DNA of 64,000 nucleotides from an uncultured virus (IMG/VR IMGVR_UViG_3300010158_000052). Its lineage: Duplodnaviria > Heunggongvirae > Uroviricota > Caudoviricetes. The position numbers were made by a program, and so were the translations under genes. The notes below the pieces were generated by a model. That model was not told the origin of the DNA. It was given only the letters and a program-made list of their open reading frames with translations, and did not search any database. The first letter of the stretch is position 1; each line of letters begins with the position of its first letter. The stretch lies in the IMG/VR virus record IMGVR_UViG_3300010158_000052; one strand, written 5' to 3'. This document shows, piece by piece, positions 45,735-50,056 of the stretch.

Positions 45735-47384
45735 TTATGAGATGATATAATGAGGCGGTGTTGAAAATTCAGCCACAAACTTAGTTCTTTTTAATTGAAT
45801 TGTTTCCTGAATAATATTCTTCATTCCCATATAATCATCCACTGCATATAGCTTATGTGCTTTCTTAGTGATAGCACCAAATATAGTCATGAACATTCTT
45901 TGTTTAAAAAACAAATCTGCTCCCCGACCACCCATATACATAAAAAATGACAATTGAGCATGGGCATAATGGTCTGCGATATTAGATTCGTTTGTATTAT
46001 TTGGACCAGAATAAGGTTTTACTTTATTTCTTATTTCATTTATGACAGAAAGCATATACTCACTGTATAGAGAAATTGTTCCTTTAAATTCTGTTTCGGT
46101 TAATTTAGCATACTTGTCAAAGAATTTTTTTGTCGTTTCATTTTTCTTTTTTAAATATAATATTTCTTGTGTTGCTAAATCTCGTCTAGCTGCGGTATAT
46201 TCTGTAGCTACTTTTTTAAATTCTTCAGGATTTTCTTTCTTAAATTTAGCACACATCTTATCAAAAACTGCAAGCCTATAGTTTACTACTTTTGAAATTA
46301 CTGCCTTGTACTGTGGATATTTCATTGCAAAAGTTTCAAATGTAGTAATACCAATTCCTCCGACCCATTGTGTGTCTTGGTATTGTTTTGAAGATGCATC
46401 AAACTGACCATTCCACCCAGCACTGTGTCCTTGAGCAAACAGGTTAAAATTTAAATTATATGTTGACATAGGTTTTTGTGTTTCTGGATCAATTAAATTC
46501 TTATAATTTAATGATACTGGAAATACCCAGTTAAGAACATCACCATTAGAAAATTTATCAAAATTTATATGTACAACTTTATTAATATATTCTCTTGTTT
46601 TAGATGGGTCATGTAATATGATAGCAAGAAATTTTGTGTAGGGATCAATATCATCAGATGCATCTTTTCCGCTTGCAAACATAACTTTTTTTATGCTTAT
46701 ATTTGATTTTACTCCTGTTGGTAACTTTAAAGATATAGGAAAAATTTCCCCGCTATCCATGTACCTTCCGATAACATTTTTATAATTGTTACCGCCAGAT
46801 GCTGCATTTTTTATAATTGTTATTGGGTCTGTGAAATATTTTATAAAGTTGGTTTCGATTTTGGTCATTGATGATTTTTTAACAAATATAACATCAATAG
46901 CAGATAAAACATCGCTTTTATATGAGATATTCATTGCGCTTCTTATATTATCTAGAGATTTGTTTTTCAATAGAATGAAAAATGGGTCTTTCTGATTTAA
47001 AAACTTATATGATGATGTTGCGCCATTTAATCTATTTGAACTAATAAAAGTTTTAGCAACGTTATATACTTTCTTAGCAAGAGAGCTATATGTTTCTTTT
47101 TTAGTTTTTTCAGTTTCTCCTACTGTGAACCCTTTTCTAATAACTTGTCCATTCATAGGAAACCTTTTAGATAAGCAATCGGTTGCTTTTATTCTATTAA
47201 TAACCTCACCTGGTTTCGTCGTTGCTGCTGTAGCTTCGTTAGAAAACATAGTAAAGAAATTAATATCGTGTTTTGGTCCAATATTAGGAAAAGCGGCAAA
47301 GTAAGCAAAAGCCAAGCATTGAGCCAGTTCTTTTAGTTCTGCGGCTTTCGCGTCTTCTGGTTCGCCATAATCTAGTTCTGCCAT
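45735..47384 (-). CDS. Hypothetical protein, possible PD-(D/E)xK-like nuclease
   Basis: AT-rich, inverted; KELAQC, SAIDVIFV...FPISLK pattern. Confidence 0.6.
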   Translation of the reverse strand: MAELDYGEPEDAKAAELKELAQCLAFAYFAAFPNIGPKHDINFFTMFSNEATAATTKPGEVINRIKATDCLSKRFPMNGQVIRKGFTVGETEKTKKETYSSLAKKVYNVAKTFISSNRLNGATSSYKFLNQKDPFFILLKNKSLDNIRSAMNISYKSDVLSAIDVIFVKKSSMTKIETNFIKYFTDPITIIKNAASGGNNYKNVIGRYMDSGEIFPISLKLPTGVKSNISIKKVMFASGKDASDDIDPYTKFLAIILHDPSKTREYINKVVHINFDKFSNGDVLNWVFPVSLNYKNLIDPETQKPMSTYNLNFNLFAQGHSAGWNGQFDASSKQYQDTQWVGGIGITTFETFAMKYPQYKAVISKVVNYRLAVFDKMCAKFKKENPEEFKKVATEYTAARRDLATQEILYLKKKNETTKKFFDKYAKLTETEFKGTISLYSEYMLSVINEIRNKVKPYSGPNNTNESNIADHYAHAQLSFFMYMGGRGADLFFKQRMFMTIFGAITKKAHKLYAVDDYMGMKNIIQETIQLKRTKFVAEFSTPPHYIIS

Positions 47385-47490: not shown

Positions 47491-48660
47491 ATGGAACCTA
47501 TCGTTGATCCCGCCTTACACCAATTTGCTACTGAGCTTCAGTTAAAATATATTGAACTCATTAATGAATTTGGTGGTTACAGTTCAGCAGCAAGAAAGTT
47601 AGGAATCAATCCTGATGCTGTTCGTAATGCAATGAGGCGACTAAAAACTAAGGCTGCTATGCGCGGCTATTCTCCTGAACATGATATGACAAAGATTGCC
47701 CCTGCTCCTTATTTGATTAAGGGTACGTCTACTAATTATGATTCGGAAGGTAACATTACTTCTCAGTGGGTAAAGACTAAGGCAGACGAATCATATCGTA
47801 TGCAAATGATTCTTGATGCTATTGAAGATGCAACAAATCCAATCGAACGCTTACCTCCTATCAAAGCACCGAAGACTTCTGCTTCTCATCTTTGTAACAT
47901 GTATACATTTACCGATTATCATATGGGTATGTTAGCTTGGCACAAAGAAGGTGGAGCAGACTGGGATAGAGATATCGCAGAAAGAACACTGATTGGTGCA
48001 TTTGAACAAATGATTACAATGTCTCCTGAAGCAGATACTTGTATTATTAATCAACTTGGTGACTTCCTTCACTATGATGGTCTAGCTCAAGTTACACCAA
48101 CAAGTCATCATATGGTTGAAGCTGATGGTAATTATTCTCAGATGGTAAATTCTACTATCCGTGCTCTTCGTCGTGTTATTGATATTGCTCTTATGAAGCA
48201 CCAGAAGGTTCATCTCATCATGGCTGAAGGTAATCACGATCTAGCTTCTTCAGTTTGGCTTCGTCATTTGTTCACCGCTCTTTATGAGAACGAACCTAGA
48301 CTAACAGTTAATAATTCTGAAATTCCATATTATGTTTATCAGCATGGCAAGGTAATGCTTGGTTTCCATCACGGACATAAGAAGAAGAAGGAAGGATTGC
48401 CACTTCTATTTGCAGCTAAGTTCCACAAGATTTGGGGCGAAACTACAAAGCGTTATATTCATACTGGACATTATCATCATGAAGATGTCAAGGAGTTTCC
48501 TGGTGTGAAGGTAATTCAGCATCCAACATTAGCTGCTGCTGATTCTTATGCTGCTCGTGGTGGCTGGATGAGCGAACAACAAACTTCTTGCGTGACTTAT
48601 CATAATGAGTTTGGTAAAGTTGGTGAAGTTGTAGTTAATCCTGAAATGCTAAATATCTAA
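47491..48660 (+). CDS. HTH plus calcineurin-like metallophosphoesterase
   Basis: SAARKLGINPDAVR helix-turn-helix; TDYHMG, LGDFLHYD, EGNHD, HHGH, TGHYHH. Confidence 0.82.
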   Translation: MEPIVDPALHQFATELQLKYIELINEFGGYSSAARKLGINPDAVRNAMRRLKTKAAMRGYSPEHDMTKIAPAPYLIKGTSTNYDSEGNITSQWVKTKADESYRMQMILDAIEDATNPIERLPPIKAPKTSASHLCNMYTFTDYHMGMLAWHKEGGADWDRDIAERTLIGAFEQMITMSPEADTCIINQLGDFLHYDGLAQVTPTSHHMVEADGNYSQMVNSTIRALRRVIDIALMKHQKVHLIMAEGNHDLASSVWLRHLFTALYENEPRLTVNNSEIPYYVYQHGKVMLGFHHGHKKKKEGLPLLFAAKFHKIWGETTKRYIHTGHYHHEDVKEFPGVKVIQHPTLAAADSYAARGGWMSEQQTSCVTYHNEFGKVGEVVVNPEMLNI

Positions 48661-48701
48661 AAAAATTAATAATCATTAGTCCACAAGATTGTAACTTTAT
48701 T

Positions 48702-49013
48702 ATGGAGATTAATATGGTATATGGTACAGAAGTAAATAAACTTGTGCGTAAAACTGATCCACAAACAAGCAAAGATTCTGCGAATAAAGTAAATTCAACA
48801 TTTCTTGAAGAGATGGTACATAAAGCAATCAAAGAATATGGCGAAATTGGTTGTGTTGCCGACGATCTTCTTGATAAGTTTTCTGATTTCCCATACTCTA
48901 GTATCACTGCACGTTTTGCAGCATTAGAAAGAAAGGGATATATTCAATGCGGACCAGAAAAGAGAGCAGGTCGTAGTAATCGTGGTCAGAGAGTTATGCG
49001 TAACTTAATATAA
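48702..49013 (+). CDS. Small winged-helix DNA-binding protein
   Basis: RKTDPQTS..SITARFAALERKGYI motif. Confidence 0.65.
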   Translation: MEINMVYGTEVNKLVRKTDPQTSKDSANKVNSTFLEEMVHKAIKEYGEIGCVADDLLDKFSDFPYSSITARFAALERKGYIQCGPEKRAGRSNRGQRVMRNLI

Positions 49014-49026
49014 ATAAAAAGCACAA

Positions 49027-49116
49027 GGAGGAATGTCCGAGCGGTTTAAGGAACTAGTCTTGAAAACTAGCGTGGGTGAGAGTCCACCGTGGGTTCGAAT
49101 CCCACTCCCTCCTCCA
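49027..49116 (+). tRNA. tRNA-Ser(TGA)
   Basis: CTAGT-CTTGAAA-ACTAG, long variable arm, TTCGAAT, CCA; late promoter TATAAATA at 49009. Confidence 0.92.
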
Positions 49117-49124
49117 CTAATTAT

Positions 49125-49248
49125 CGGCGGAACGCTGCATGGGCAGGGCGAGGAAGGTCCAACTTCCTTAATAGGTGAAGGCGGATGGGAGCGATCCCTG
49201 AGAAGCATAAACCAAGTCTGGTCGGGTTCGAATCCTGTGCCGCCGTCA
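49125..49248 (+). ncRNA. Expanded tRNA-like RNA of unknown function
   Basis: CGGCGG/CCGCCG acceptor-like stem, D-like hairpin, perfect GGGTTCGAATCC T-arm, ~50 nt structured insert. Confidence 0.6.
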
Positions 49249-49254
49249 ACTTTT

Positions 49255-49293
49255 AATCCCTCATAAATAACTTAACTGTTTTTATGAGGGATT
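49255..49293 (+). promoter_or_regulatory. SD-occluding hairpin/terminator with embedded late promoter
   Basis: AATCCCTCATAAA...TTTATGAGGGATT; ATAAATA at 49263. Confidence 0.75.
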
Positions 49294-49297
49294 TTTA

Positions 49298-49789
49298 ATG
49301 TTAAGTTTTATAGAATTTTTAGAAGAACGTAAAGTTGATCCTGCTAAATTGGCTAACCGTGTTGCTCGTAGATACGGCAGTAAGAGAACAAATTACGGAC
49401 CTTGGATGAATGCTAAACAAGGCGATGTTAAAAAAGGTGGGCATATTCCTCTTAGTACATATGATCGTAAGAAGGTCAGGTCTATGGAGGACAGTTATTA
49501 TAAGAGAGTGTCCTCACACCCAAAAGGCGAGATAGGATATGCTCGTGAAAGAGGTTCAAAACCTTTGGTAAAGATGTCTATTAAAAGCCTTCGCGCTACA
49601 CAACCTTTTAATAGAACAAATGACCCAGAAAAACTAAAAGATAAAATAGCCGATACTAGTCCTCAGAATATTCATGTTGTTACTCATAACGGTGAGCATT
49701 ATGTGGCTGATGGACATCATGCTGTAATGGCAGCTCATCTTCGTGGTGACACTCATGTTAATGTCAAGCATACAAACCTTGACGAATAG
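49298..49789 (+). CDS. Putative capsid-targeted internal protein with a ParB/Srx-like domain
   Basis: MLSFIEFLEE leader; LRATQP, HYVADGHHAVMA. Confidence 0.7.
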   Translation: MLSFIEFLEERKVDPAKLANRVARRYGSKRTNYGPWMNAKQGDVKKGGHIPLSTYDRKKVRSMEDSYYKRVSSHPKGEIGYARERGSKPLVKMSIKSLRATQPFNRTNDPEKLKDKIADTSPQNIHVVTHNGEHYVADGHHAVMAAHLRGDTHVNVKHTNLDE

Positions 49790-49791
49790 GG

Positions 49792-49820
49792 TTGACATTT
49801 GAAATAACGTATGCTATATT
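49792..49820 (+). promoter_or_regulatory. Sigma70-type early promoter
   Basis: TTGACA-N17-TATATT with extended TG. Confidence 0.65.
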
Positions 49821-49837
49821 ATGATCTCAATAACTAA

Positions 49838-50056
49838 ATGGAGAGTGAAATGAAATATACTATCGACCTTCCATATGAAACTATGGATGAAATTATTATC
49901 AATATGCTTACTCAAAATATTGCCGACTGGGAAGATGATCTTGCAAAAGAATGTCCTTTGATCTTTGAACGTGATCCAGAGTTGGACAAGAAGATGATCC
50001 GTAAGCACATTAAGTCTGCTCGTCGTATCATTGCTTATTATAGTGTTGGTGGATAA
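49838..50056 (+). CDS. Hypothetical protein
   Basis: ORF right after an early promoter; true start is probably the second Met, after GGAG. Confidence 0.6.
   Translation: MESEMKYTIDLPYETMDEIIINMLTQNIADWEDDLAKECPLIFERDPELDKKMIRKHIKSARRIIAYYSVGG

What the first reader, a model, noticed from the sequence alone, without database searches (positions are those of the whole stretch)
49125..49248. Unexplained ~120 nt tRNA-like RNA directly after tRNA-Ser
Seen: acceptor-like stem, D-like hairpin CTGC-ATGG-GCAG, a 6 bp arm AGGAAG-GTCCAA-CTTCCT with a non-canonical 6 nt loop, a ~50 nt insert containing GGGA-GCGA-TCCC (GNRA loop), a perfect T-loop and a TCA end. It is GC-rich in an AT-rich genome, which suggests selection on structure. 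Inference: a tRNA mimic, such as a decoy for anticodon nucleases, a Y-RNA-like molecule or a new ncRNA class.
Basis: partly seen in the sequence, partly recalled or inferred. Interest (0 to 1): 0.7.

Follow-up and report, generated by a model that had tools for sequence, protein, structure and literature searches.

The report
Oversized tryptophan-tRNA look-alike in phage
The 125-base stretch after the phage's serine tRNA gene is a real, conserved gene for a misshapen tRNA-like RNA that descends from a tryptophan tRNA but has a too-short anticodon loop and a huge extra arm, so standard tRNA finders miss it and its job is still unknown.

Summary
Observation confirmed. ARAGORN and Rfam do not call it.

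It has relatives. Pattern scans and covariance models found a small phage-borne family of 13 distinct sequences. A model built only from the 11 short members hits the window element at 62.6 bits, E 3.8e-13.

- **Scaffold:** nearly invariant, allo-tRNA/tRNA-Sec-like, apparently "8/4".
- **Anticodon arm:** a 7-bp, strongly covarying stem. The loop keeps UCCA but is 6 nt (GUCCAA) in 9 of 13. One member has a canonical loop and ARAGORN calls it tRNA-Trp(CCA).
- **Long arm:** the window copy and one divergent relative (L043) also carry a ~50-nt variable arm.
- **Transfer:** an identical copy sits in an otherwise unrelated phage contig.
- **Not T4 rnaC:** an rnaC model finds nothing.

Best reading: a processed tRNA-Trp mimic that does not decode normally and probably engages a host factor that recognises tRNA-Trp. 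That function is inferred, not shown.

The scan holds no look-alike by sequence. It has noted other phage tRNA look-alikes on other DNA.

New variant of a known kind; interest 0.6.

The parts
49027..49116 (+). tRNA-Ser(UGA), ordinary, with encoded CCA; upstream neighbour on the same strand
   Evidence: ARAGORN; Rfam tRNA 52.1 bits
49117..49124 (+). 8-nt spacer ending in UAU just before the element
   Evidence: UAU precedes the first C in 16 of 18 printed family flanks; the other 2 have UAA
49125..49249 (+). The tRNA-Trp-derived tRNA-like RNA gene, long-variable-arm form, including its 4-nt tail
   Evidence: R2 model built without it: 62.6 bits, E 3.8e-13. Identical copies in L001/L002 and in L053, L054, L109
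49125..49132 (+). Acceptor 5' strand CGGCGGAA. Positions 1-6 and 8 pair; position 7 is an invariant A.G mismatch
   Evidence: Pair table on 13 distinct sequences: pair 4 CG x11 / GU x2; pair 5 GC x11 / CG x1 / AU x1
49135..49146 (+). D-like hairpin, 4 bp with tetraloop AUGG
   Evidence: Sequence. Invariant in all 13 family sequences, but it was part of the search patterns
49150..49169 (+). Anticodon-like arm: 7-bp stem (GAGGAAG/CUUCCUU) with the 6-nt loop GUCCAA at 49157-49162
   Evidence: RNAfold of the arm. Family covariation: 12-13 of 13 paired at each of 7 positions, with 2-6 pair combinations per position (some include a UU or CU mismatch)
49170..49221 (+). About 52-nt variable-region insert. 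It folds as a long irregular hairpin (GGU/ACC, GC/GC, GGGA/UCCC) capped by GCGA at 49191-49194
   Evidence: Constrained folds of the window and L043. L043 has a hairpin at the same place with CCGG-UUCG-CCGG. Only two distinct long forms are known
49223..49237 (+). T arm: 4-bp stem CGGG/CCUG with loop UUCGAAU
   Evidence: Sequence. T pair 2 is CG x10 / UA x2 / GU x1
49238..49245 (+). Acceptor 3' strand UGCCGCCG
49246..49249 (+). Tail UCAA. The same place reads CCA in 8 of 13 family sequences, UCA in 3, CUA in 1 and CCC in 1
49255..49298 (+). Terminator-like hairpin (49255-49293) followed by a U run; the next ORF starts at ATG 49298
   Evidence: RNA fold -18.7 kcal/mol, z -5.34, 0 of 200 shuffles as good. 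The simple terminator scan missed it

Best explanation
**Identity (well supported).** This is a gene for a stable, tRNA-shaped RNA of about 121-125 nt. It belongs to a small family carried by diverse phages that derives from a non-canonical tRNA-Trp(CCA) lineage.

The family scaffold has these parts:
- a long acceptor stem read as 8 positions
- a 4-bp T stem
- a 4-bp D stem with tetraloop AUGG
- a 7-bp anticodon stem

In most members the anticodon loop keeps U-C-C-A but is only 6 nt (GUCCAA). The window copy also carries a variable arm of about 50 nt capped by a GNRA loop.

**How it most likely works (inferred).**
1. It is transcribed with tRNA-Ser up to the hairpin at 49255-49298.
2. The host tRNA-processing enzymes (RNase P, 3' trimming, CCA addition or repair) release it.
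3. It folds into an L-shape through the D-loop GG and the T-loop.
4. A 6-nt loop cannot present a normal anticodon, so I read it as a non-decoding tRNA-Trp look-alike.
5. It would occupy or divert a host factor that recognises the tRNA-Trp anticodon loop and body. The leading candidate is a tRNA-targeting defence nuclease; TrpRS or a modification enzyme are alternatives.
6. The extra arm may serve as an added binding surface.

The 0.4 confidence is for the whole statement including the mechanism. Identity as a real family member I put near 0.9.
For: **Shown**
- The short-form model R2, built without the window, hits the window at 62.6 bits, E 3.8e-13.
- There are 13 distinct family sequences.
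- The anticodon stem covaries: 12-13 of 13 sequences are paired at each of 7 positions, with 2-6 pair combinations per position. The acceptor (pairs 4 and 5) and the T stem (pair 2) show compensatory changes.
- Loop GUCCAA is identical in 9 of 13 sequences despite different stems. Its closing pair switches between G-C and A-U.
- One member has the 7-nt loop UUCCAAA and ARAGORN calls it tRNA-Trp.
- Two contigs carry an ordinary tRNA-Trp(CCA) directly beside the 6-nt-loop member, so that member is not needed for normal Trp decoding.
- Members lie in phage contigs, one strong copy each in 12 of 12 IMG/VR records. In 9 of the 10 viral loci scanned they lie on the same strand as nearby tRNA genes; the tenth (L184) shows only the member itself.
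- The element is an island of similarity between otherwise dissimilar loci.
- A 100% identical copy lies in a contig that shares with the window only a 78%-identical tRNA-Thr.
- No differences fall inside 49125-49249 in contigs of 4 of 4 laid runs (4 studies). The downstream ORF shows about 2% differences in two of them.
- A strong hairpin follows the gene.

**Weak hint only.** A metatranscriptome contig covers 48709-49239 with 0 differences. Such a library can hold DNA, so this does not show transcription.

**Precedent.** Phage tRNAs with anticodon-loop changes have been proposed to escape host anticodon nucleases (PMC10264068, passages read).
Against: - No expression ends, charging state or binding partner were observed. 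The mechanism is inference only.
- U33-C34-C35-A36 is kept in 12 of 13 sequences, and a CCA tail is encoded in 8 of 13. Both fit a decoding, chargeable tRNA as well as a mimic.
- No nuclease that targets tRNA-Trp is known for the unknown host.
- The window copy has UCA, not CCA, at its end.
- Folding energy is not better than shuffles, and the MFE is a competing non-cloverleaf fold.
- The family was gathered with exact-pattern scans, so the apparent invariance of the D and T arms is partly built in.
- The long arm rests on only two distinct sequences.
- None of the nine more distant relatives of this phage that were searched around the same genes holds the element.
Confidence: 0.4

Rival explanations
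1. It is a working but non-canonical tRNA: a tRNA-Trp isoacceptor whose altered loop (G32, and changes or a deletion at positions 37/38) makes it insensitive to a host anticodon nuclease. Alternatively it decodes in an unusual way. It would be charged by TrpRS, or by SerRS through the long arm.
For: - UCCA is invariant in 12 of 13 loops.
- Variation clusters at the loop positions that flank the anticodon: UUCCAAA, GUCCAUA, GUCCAA, UUCCAC, and GUCCAGA in one contig of run X9.
- GCCA is encoded in 8 of 13 sequences.
- The family sits in tRNA operons.
- Published 8/4 and 9/3 tRNAs with long arms are charged and used in E. coli (PMC5389517, passages).
- The anticodon-loop-mutation hypothesis exists for phage tRNAs (PMC10264068).
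- ARAGORN at a relaxed threshold reports several short members as tRNAs with a two-base anticodon 'cc'.
Against: - A 6-nt loop whose closing pair covaries (G-C or A-U) leaves no room for a standard 7-nt anticodon loop.
- Loop length varies between 6, 7 and 9 nt across the family.
- An ordinary tRNA-Trp sits next to one 6-nt-loop member.
- No tRNA model reaches its threshold.
Confidence: 0.25
2. It is chiefly a mobile, selfish module. It would be a tRNA-shaped cassette spread between phages by recombination or homing endonucleases, with little benefit to the phage.
For: - A 100% identical 125-nt copy lies in a different phage background.
- The element is the only similar stretch between many loci.
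- HNH endonuclease ORFs lie next to members in L056/L049 and L046.
- Related loci L049 and L051 have flanks about 90% alike, yet one carries a 7-nt-loop form and the other a 6-nt-loop form.
Against: - Compensatory changes and an invariant loop motif show selection on the RNA itself.
- PHROG and Pfam scans of ten ORFs between 43903 and 52229 gave no endonuclease match.
- Mobility and function are not exclusive.
Confidence: 0.12
3. It is a decaying tRNA gene: a tRNA-Trp pseudogene disrupted by an insertion in the variable region and a one-base loop deletion.
For: - It is not called by ARAGORN or Rfam.
- It carries an insert and a shortened loop.
- It has UCA in place of CCA.
- It is absent from more distant relatives of this phage.
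Against: - The same 6-nt loop recurs on several different, compensated stems.
- The insert has a homologous, compensated counterpart in L043.
- There are zero differences across 4 laid runs.
- An identical copy lies in an unrelated contig.
Confidence: 0.06
4. It is a homologue of the phage T4 stable RNA species 1 (rnaC).
For: - The setting is the same: a T4-type phage, next to tRNA genes.
- Both are tRNA-like, with a T arm and an acceptor stem.
- Both have an arm with a 6-nt loop ending in CAA: CGUCAA in rnaC, GUCCAA here.
- Both are preceded by UAU/AAU and followed by a U(A)CAA-type tail.
- The single-sequence model R1 gave rnaC as its best stray hit (13.1 bits, E 0.22).
Against: - An rnaC covariance model finds itself at 160 bits but nothing at E <= 10 in the window or in 9 family loci.
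- The R1 hit is not significant.
- The large extra domain sits in a different place: the D side in rnaC, the variable region here.
Confidence: 0.04

Closest known systems
Non-canonical '8/4' tRNAs and allo-tRNAs (Mukai et al., Nucleic Acids Res 2017, PMC5389517; abstract and passages read, supplement text searched)
   Same: - The 12-position acceptor/T branch splits as a long acceptor plus a 4-bp T stem.
- The D arm has a tetraloop.
- The anticodon stem is longer than 5 bp.
- The window copy has a long variable arm.
- Both occur in phages and metagenomes, and some members are suspected to be non-translational.
- The canonical-loop family member scores best against Rfam tRNA-Sec (25.2 bits), as allo-tRNAs did in that study's pipeline.
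   Different: - The paper reports Ser and His 8/4 tRNAs in phages. 'Trp' does not occur in its main text.
- Its supplement does not contain this family's D-arm 14-mer.
- The D stem here is 4 bp, not long.
- The loop is 6 nt in most members.
- The variable arm (about 50 nt) looks much longer and more irregular than the long V-arms the paper describes; I did not retrieve their lengths.
Phage T4 small stable RNAs RNAC/rnaC (species 1) and RNAD/rnaD (species 2)
   Same: - They are tRNA-cluster-encoded, tRNA-like stable RNAs of a T4-type phage.
- Their function is still unknown (PMC3014915 and PMC9697503, passages).
- rnaC has an acceptor stem, a T arm and a conserved 6-nt-loop arm.
   Different: - There is no significant sequence or structure match in either direction.
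- rnaC was found in 748 phage records, mostly of enterobacterial hosts.
- rnaC has no CCA-type anticodon motif.
Phage tRNAs with anticodon-loop mutations proposed to evade host anticodon nucleases (van den Berg et al., eLife 2023, PMC10264068; passages read)
   Same: Both are phage-encoded. The changes concentrate in the anticodon loop next to an unchanged anticodon.
   Different: Those are otherwise canonical, callable tRNAs with 7-nt loops. Here the loop is shortened, the scaffold is non-canonical and there is a giant extra arm. No cognate nuclease is known.
Bacillus cereus tRNA-Other, a tRNA-like small RNA
   Same: It is a tRNA-shaped RNA that is not a normal decoder. It is mentioned as a tRNA-like small RNA charged non-canonically in PMC5389517 (passage). 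I recall, without a call, that it resembles tRNA-Trp and has a regulatory role.
   Different: It is chromosomal and bacterial, with no sequence relation tested here. The resemblance is a lead from memory only.

Membership tests
Canonical tRNA (Rfam RF00005; ARAGORN default) | Scores at or above the family's gathering score (29 bits), or is called by ARAGORN | tested here: not met
   - No tRNA hit on 49125-49249 at gathering or at E <= 10.
- ARAGORN makes no call, with or without intron mode.
- No member in the 6 family loci scanned has an RF00005 hit at E <= 1.
Canonical tRNA (Rfam RF00005; ARAGORN default) | 7-nt anticodon loop on a 5-bp stem | tested here: not met
   The loop is 6 nt and its closing pair covaries (G-C x11, A-U x2). 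The stem is 7 bp.
The phage family defined here (model R2) | Significant score against a covariance model built without the window sequence | tested here: met
   62.6 bits, E 3.8e-13. The other long form, L043, scores 68.8 bits.
The phage family defined here (model R2) | Shared scaffold (acceptor with an A.G mismatch, AUGG D hairpin, UCCA-containing loop, 4-bp T stem), supported by compensatory changes | tested here: met
   Pair table on 13 distinct sequences. The D arm and T arm were part of the search patterns, so their invariance is partly by design.
8/4 allo-tRNA-type tRNAs (PMC5389517) | 12-bp acceptor branch split 8/4 instead of 7/5 | tested here: inconclusive
   - The 8/4 reading gives an A8-U pair and a normal 2-nt linker.
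- The 7/5 reading gives a U.U mismatch and a 3-nt linker.
- The deciding positions are invariant, so covariation cannot decide.
- The Rfam tRNA-Sec model aligns a relative with a long acceptor and a 4-bp T stem.
8/4 allo-tRNA-type tRNAs (PMC5389517) | Long variable arm, long D stem with tetraloop, lengthened anticodon stem | tested here: inconclusive
   - Long arm: present in the window and L043 only, absent in 11 of 13 sequences.
- Tetraloop: present.
- D stem: only 4 bp.
- Anticodon stem: 7 bp.

8/4 allo-tRNA-type tRNAs (PMC5389517) | Aminoacylation (Ser identity) and use in translation | not testable with these tools
   Needs biochemistry.
tRNA-Sec (Rfam RF01852) | Reaches the gathering score (47 bits); UCA anticodon | tested here: not met
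   No hit on the window element. A canonical-loop relative reaches only 25.2 bits. The loop motif is CCA, not UCA.
T4 rnaC (species 1 RNA) | Match to a covariance model of five rnaC homologues | tested here: not met
   R3 finds T4 rnaC at 160.3 bits. It finds nothing at E <= 10 in the window or in 9 family loci.
tmRNA and other catalogued tRNA-like RNAs (including Y-RNA-like) | Called by ARAGORN tmRNA mode, or by any Rfam model | tested here: not met
   ARAGORN finds no tmRNA. No Rfam family covers the element at E <= 10 apart from a noise-level sX4 match (13 bits, E 2) that starts in the tRNA-Ser gene.

The most novel reading that the evidence does not exclude
The 6-nt GUCCAA loop is a selected decoding device, not a defect. 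On this reading these phage RNAs are charged and used on the ribosome in a non-standard way. Examples would be nuclease-proof Trp insertion, or two-base ('doublet') reading that shifts the frame. The window copy's 50-nt arm would be a natural protein-binding handle on a translating tRNA.
Probability: 0.1. Interest if true: 0.9.

Novelty: new variant of a known kind. Interest (0 to 1): 0.6.

Why it matters
- **Annotation gap.** Standard annotation (ARAGORN, Rfam) leaves this gene and its relatives blank. Phage tRNA repertoires are therefore undercounted for exactly the odd members that may matter in conflicts between phage and host.
- **A clean test case.** The same near-invariant scaffold carries a fast-changing but always paired anticodon stem. 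Its loop keeps UCCA and comes in 6-, 7- and 9-nt versions, sometimes right next to a normal tRNA-Trp. This asks directly what phage "tRNA look-alikes" do, a question open since T4 RNAC/RNAD in the 1970s. If the RNA proves to be a decoy or an insensitive substitute, it would point to host defences that attack tRNA-Trp.
- **Engineering.** The window copy shows that this scaffold tolerates a 50-nt structured arm. That is of interest for tRNA engineering; an aptamer-tagged allo-tRNA study exists (PMC7590224, seen only as a search listing and abstract start).

Tried and rejected
- **Similarity to known phages.** blastn of the element alone against 50,697 phage records gave no match at E <= 10. With flanks, 79 records matched only the tRNA-Ser part.
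- **Synteny.** The downstream ORF gave 3 loci. The only non-identical one (L003, 50% identity) has no tRNA and no element. The exonuclease gene gave 11 loci; none of the 9 non-identical ones holds the element.
- **Single-sequence model R1.** Over 21 related or reference records it gave only the self-hit plus noise. The noise hits were inspected and dismissed.
- **Nearest held virus record.** G001 gave no match for a 1.1-kb stretch (48700-49800) spanning the element. The window's own assembly is not held.
- **Short allele.** The 25-letter string from run X9 was not found in IMG/VR, so that allele could not be fetched or run through ARAGORN.
- **Metagenome 19-mer scan.** Of its 23 hits, 10 are not members. 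They have no T arm or acceptor and score at most 21 bits; several are one conserved coding sequence.
- **IMG/VR 14-mer scan.** Only 3 of its 80 fetched loci held members; the fourth hit in that search was L056, from the genome-contig scan.
- **Long-form pattern.** It returned only window-type copies.
- **RNAalifold on the two long forms.** It gave an implausible structure driven by the MAFFT alignment and was not used. The model-made alignment A6 misplaces the insert, so pair counts were made by script instead.
- **ARAGORN at relaxed thresholds.** It gives inconsistent sub-threshold calls inside the long arm (Leu-GAG in the window, Arg-CCG in L043). I treat these as noise.
- **R2 over Alphaproteobacteria.** Of 151 genomes in the class of the one genome that holds a member, only that genome matched. 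Few candidates per genome were scored, so this is "not found in those searched".
- **RNA run X6.** No contig of it covers 49240-49531. I make nothing of that gap.
- **Literature.** 'six-nucleotide anticodon loop' returned 0 papers. 'species 1 RNA' + 'bacteriophage T4' + 'tRNA' returned 0 papers.
- **Protein-coding reading.** ORFs 49033-49266 (+) and 49121-49249 (-) were rejected because they overlap the tRNA-Ser gene and the structured element.

Full report
**1. The observation**

- ARAGORN finds three tRNAs in the window (Gly, Thr, Ser) and nothing here.
- Rfam at gathering thresholds finds the same three tRNAs only.
- A permissive Rfam scan of 48950-49350 (E <= 10) gives no tRNA-type match on the element.
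- GC is 0.55-0.56 in the bins covering 49040-49219, which span both the tRNA-Ser gene and the element, against 0.25-0.48 in the rest of 44-53 kb.
- The T-loop 11-mer (1 mismatch allowed) occurs three times in 64 kb against 0.44 expected.
- Thermodynamics alone is not persuasive. MFE is -45.1 kcal/mol with z -0.95. The cloverleaf-like fold is 2.2 kcal/mol worse than a competing fold.

**2. Setting**

The neighbours are T4-type replication genes: sliding clamp, a gp46/47-type exonuclease, clamp loader subunits and RegA. The clamp loader is closest to Stenotrophomonas phage DLP_6 (63.7%), Methylophilales phage Melnitz (58.3%) and T4-like cyanophages (about 54-56%).

A 13+3-bp hairpin followed by a U run comes 6 nt after the element's tail (49255-49298; z -5.34). 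It abuts the next ORF's ATG at 49298. The tRNA-Ser gene and the element therefore look like the end of one transcription unit. This is inferred.

**3. First searches found nothing**

blastn against phages, synteny through both flanking genes, and a single-sequence covariance model (R1) over 21 related or reference records all returned only identical copies.

**4. The break: public reads**

I laid contigs of four public runs from four studies on 48600-49900. All four carry the element with no difference inside 49125-49249. The downstream ORF differs by about 2% in two of them.

One contig of run X9 replaces 49148-49219 (72 nt) with 25 other letters. That gives a normal-sized tRNA frame with a 7-nt loop GUCCAGA on the same acceptor, D and T sequences.

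A metatranscriptome contig covers 48709-49239 without a difference. Such a library can contain DNA, so this is a weak hint of transcription only.

**5. A family exists**

*How it was gathered*
- A 19-mer from the D-arm region, scanned over metagenome contigs, gave 23 loci. Thirteen hold strong R1 matches (39-168 bits) and ten are chance or coding matches.
- Two independent IMG/VR scans agree. A 3' 22-mer pattern gave 9 loci, and all 9 are members. A 5' 18-mer pattern gave 12 contigs: the same 9 plus the 3 window-type contigs.
- One hit came from 185,579 species genomes, in an alphaproteobacterial MAG contig.
- In all there are 13 distinct sequences.

*Membership of the window element*
- Model R2 was built from the 11 short members only.
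- It scores the window element at 62.6 bits (E 3.8e-13) and the other long form, L043, at 68.8 bits.
- Each of 12 IMG/VR records has one strong copy.

**6. Anatomy of the family** (script on the 13 sequences)

| Part | Finding |
|---|---|
| Acceptor | Positions 1-6 pair. Position 7 is an invariant A.G mismatch. Position 8 is an invariant A-U pair. |
| Acceptor changes | Pair 4 is CG x11 / GU x2. Pair 5 is GC x11 / CG x1 / AU x1. |
| D arm | 4 bp with loop AUGG, invariant (but part of the search patterns). |
| Anticodon-like stem | 7 bp, paired in 13, 13, 13, 12, 12, 12 and 12 of 13 sequences. Each position shows 2-6 different pair combinations (some include a UU or CU mismatch). This is strong compensatory variation. 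|
| Loop | GUCCAA in 9. UUCCAC, UUCCAAA, GUCCAUA and UUCCCAUAC in one each. |
| Loop closing pair | G-C in 11 and A-U in 2, so the 6-nt loop is real. |
| T stem | 4 bp. Pair 2 is CG x10 / UA x2 / GU x1. |
| After the last acceptor G | CCA in 8, UCA in 3 (including the window), CUA in 1, CCC in 1. |
| Upstream | UAU precedes the first C in 16 of 18 printed flanks. |

*8/4 or 7/5.* An "8/4" reading (8-position acceptor, 4-bp T stem, 2-nt linker) costs one mismatch fewer than a 7/5 reading. The deciding bases never vary, so covariation cannot settle it.

*What the tRNA finders say*
- ARAGORN by default calls only the UUCCAAA member, as tRNA-Trp(CCA).
- None of the members in six loci reaches the Rfam tRNA model.
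- The canonical-loop member scores best against tRNA-Sec. It reaches 25.2 bits, below the 47-bit threshold, and is aligned with a long acceptor and a 4-bp T stem.

**7. The long arm**

Only the window type and L043 have the ~50-nt insert between the anticodon stem and the T arm. L043 comes from a locus of 60% GC.

With the tRNA-like helices fixed, both inserts fold into a long irregular hairpin. The window's is capped by GCGA and L043's by UUCG. The capping helix (GGGA/UCCC against CCGG/CCGG) and the basal helix (GGU/ACC against GCU/AGC) differ by paired changes.

Two sequences are too few for statistics. A pattern scan for more long forms returned only window-type copies.

**8. Distribution and mobility**

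Members sit in phage contigs. These include records estimated complete at 45-56 kb and one provirus. Terminase and HNH endonuclease genes lie nearby in some.

In 9 of the 10 viral loci scanned, members lie on the same strand as nearby tRNA genes; the tenth (L184) shows only the member itself. Several GC-rich metagenome loci (L034, L037, L043, L051) have no other tRNA within about 1.5 kb.

Two contigs carry an ordinary tRNA-Trp(CCA) immediately next to the 6-nt-loop member.

Between most loci the element is the only stretch with detectable nucleotide similarity. Contig L053 shares with the window only a 78%-identical tRNA-Thr and a 134-nt block (49120-49253) that contains a 100% identical element. 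That argues for recent lateral transfer of the module.

Loci L049 and L051 have flanks about 90% alike. One holds the 7-nt-loop form and the other the 6-nt-loop form, so the two forms interconvert or are exchanged among close relatives.

**9. What it most likely does**

*Shown:* a conserved, structurally constrained, laterally spreading tRNA-shaped gene derived from a tRNA-Trp lineage.

*Inferred:*
- It is co-transcribed with tRNA-Ser.
- Host tRNA-processing enzymes release it.
- It folds into an L-shape through the D-loop GG and the T-loop.

A covariation-supported 6-nt loop cannot present a standard anticodon, and one lineage keeps a normal tRNA-Trp beside it. I therefore favour a non-decoding mimic of tRNA-Trp that engages a host factor reading the UCCA loop and the tRNA body. 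The leading candidate is a tRNA-targeting defence nuclease, following the proposal that phage tRNAs carry anticodon-loop changes to escape such enzymes (PMC10264068, passages).

The main rival is that it is still a working, nuclease-insensitive or unusually decoding tRNA. The kept U-CCA, the encoded GCCA ends and the known activity of 8/4 tRNAs in E. coli (PMC5389517, passages) all speak for that.

Pseudogene and purely selfish-module readings are less likely, for the reasons given under the rivals.

**10. Comparison with what is known**

*Closest in architecture: the 8/4 allo-tRNA-type tRNAs.*
- That paper reports Ser and His 8/4 tRNAs in phages and does not mention Trp in its main text.
- Its supplement text lacks this family's D-arm 14-mer.

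*Closest in setting: T4 RNAC and RNAD, whose function is still unknown*.
- rnaC shares a T arm, an acceptor stem, a conserved 6-nt-loop arm and similar flanks.
- An rnaC model finds nothing in the window or in 9 family loci.
- The reverse hit is not significant.

*In print.* My searches for a six-nucleotide anticodon loop found no paper. This covers only the held open-access library.

*Earlier in this scan.* A sequence look-up found no look-alike. A word search listed other phage tRNA look-alikes on other DNA, most of them compared with T4 rnaC. None was shown to be this family.

**11. Limits**
- Family members were found through exact patterns. More divergent relatives are invisible to that method, and conservation of the pattern regions is partly by design. 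The part outside each pattern is an unbiased sample and is still nearly invariant.
- No raw RNA reads were available, so ends, abundance and charging are unknown.
- The host is unknown.

Noticed in passing
window 45735-47384 (-): A 549-aa ORF between the tRNA-Gly/Thr pair and the exonuclease gene has no PHROG or Pfam match. It lies in markedly AT-rich DNA (GC 0.24-0.39, mostly 0.24-0.34). It could be a recently acquired accessory gene.
   Followed up: no
L006 2905-3049 (-), L018-L021: T4 rnaC homologues from five genera share four features: an acceptor stem with two central U.U mismatches and an A-U to G-C compensatory change, a strictly conserved 6-nt loop CGUCAA, a UACAA tail, and a preceding (U/A)AU. 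More distant homologues (Karamvirus, and one Moonvirus record, NM4.3) match T4 only in the 3' third.
   Followed up: partly
window 48659-49071, run X8: One contig of run X8 joins 48659 to 49071. It skips the 103-aa ORF and the 5' part of tRNA-Ser; what lies between is not known. This suggests a variant gene order upstream of the element in a related phage.
   Followed up: no
L056 667-1353 (-), L046 68-460 (-): HNH endonuclease ORFs lie close to family members. In L056/L049 the ORF is directly downstream of the member. In L046 it is about 850 nt away. They may drive the spread of the module.
   Followed up: no
L185 / L190 (IMG/VR contigs): In L185, 11 tRNA genes lie within 3 kb (7 within about 2 kb in L190). 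The 6-nt-loop member is wedged between tRNA-Pro and an ordinary tRNA-Trp. Rfam also shows an extra tRNA-model hit at L173 827-905 (35.8 bits) that ARAGORN does not call.
   Followed up: no
L195 / L192 / L187: In the phages that carry the L035-type member, the neighbouring tRNA-Met (78 nt, anticodon at position 36) has an unusual length and layout by ARAGORN. The tRNA-Ser (88 nt, anticodon at position 34) may also be worth a look. They might be further non-canonical (8/4-type) tRNAs of the kind reported for alphaproteobacterial phages.
   Followed up: no
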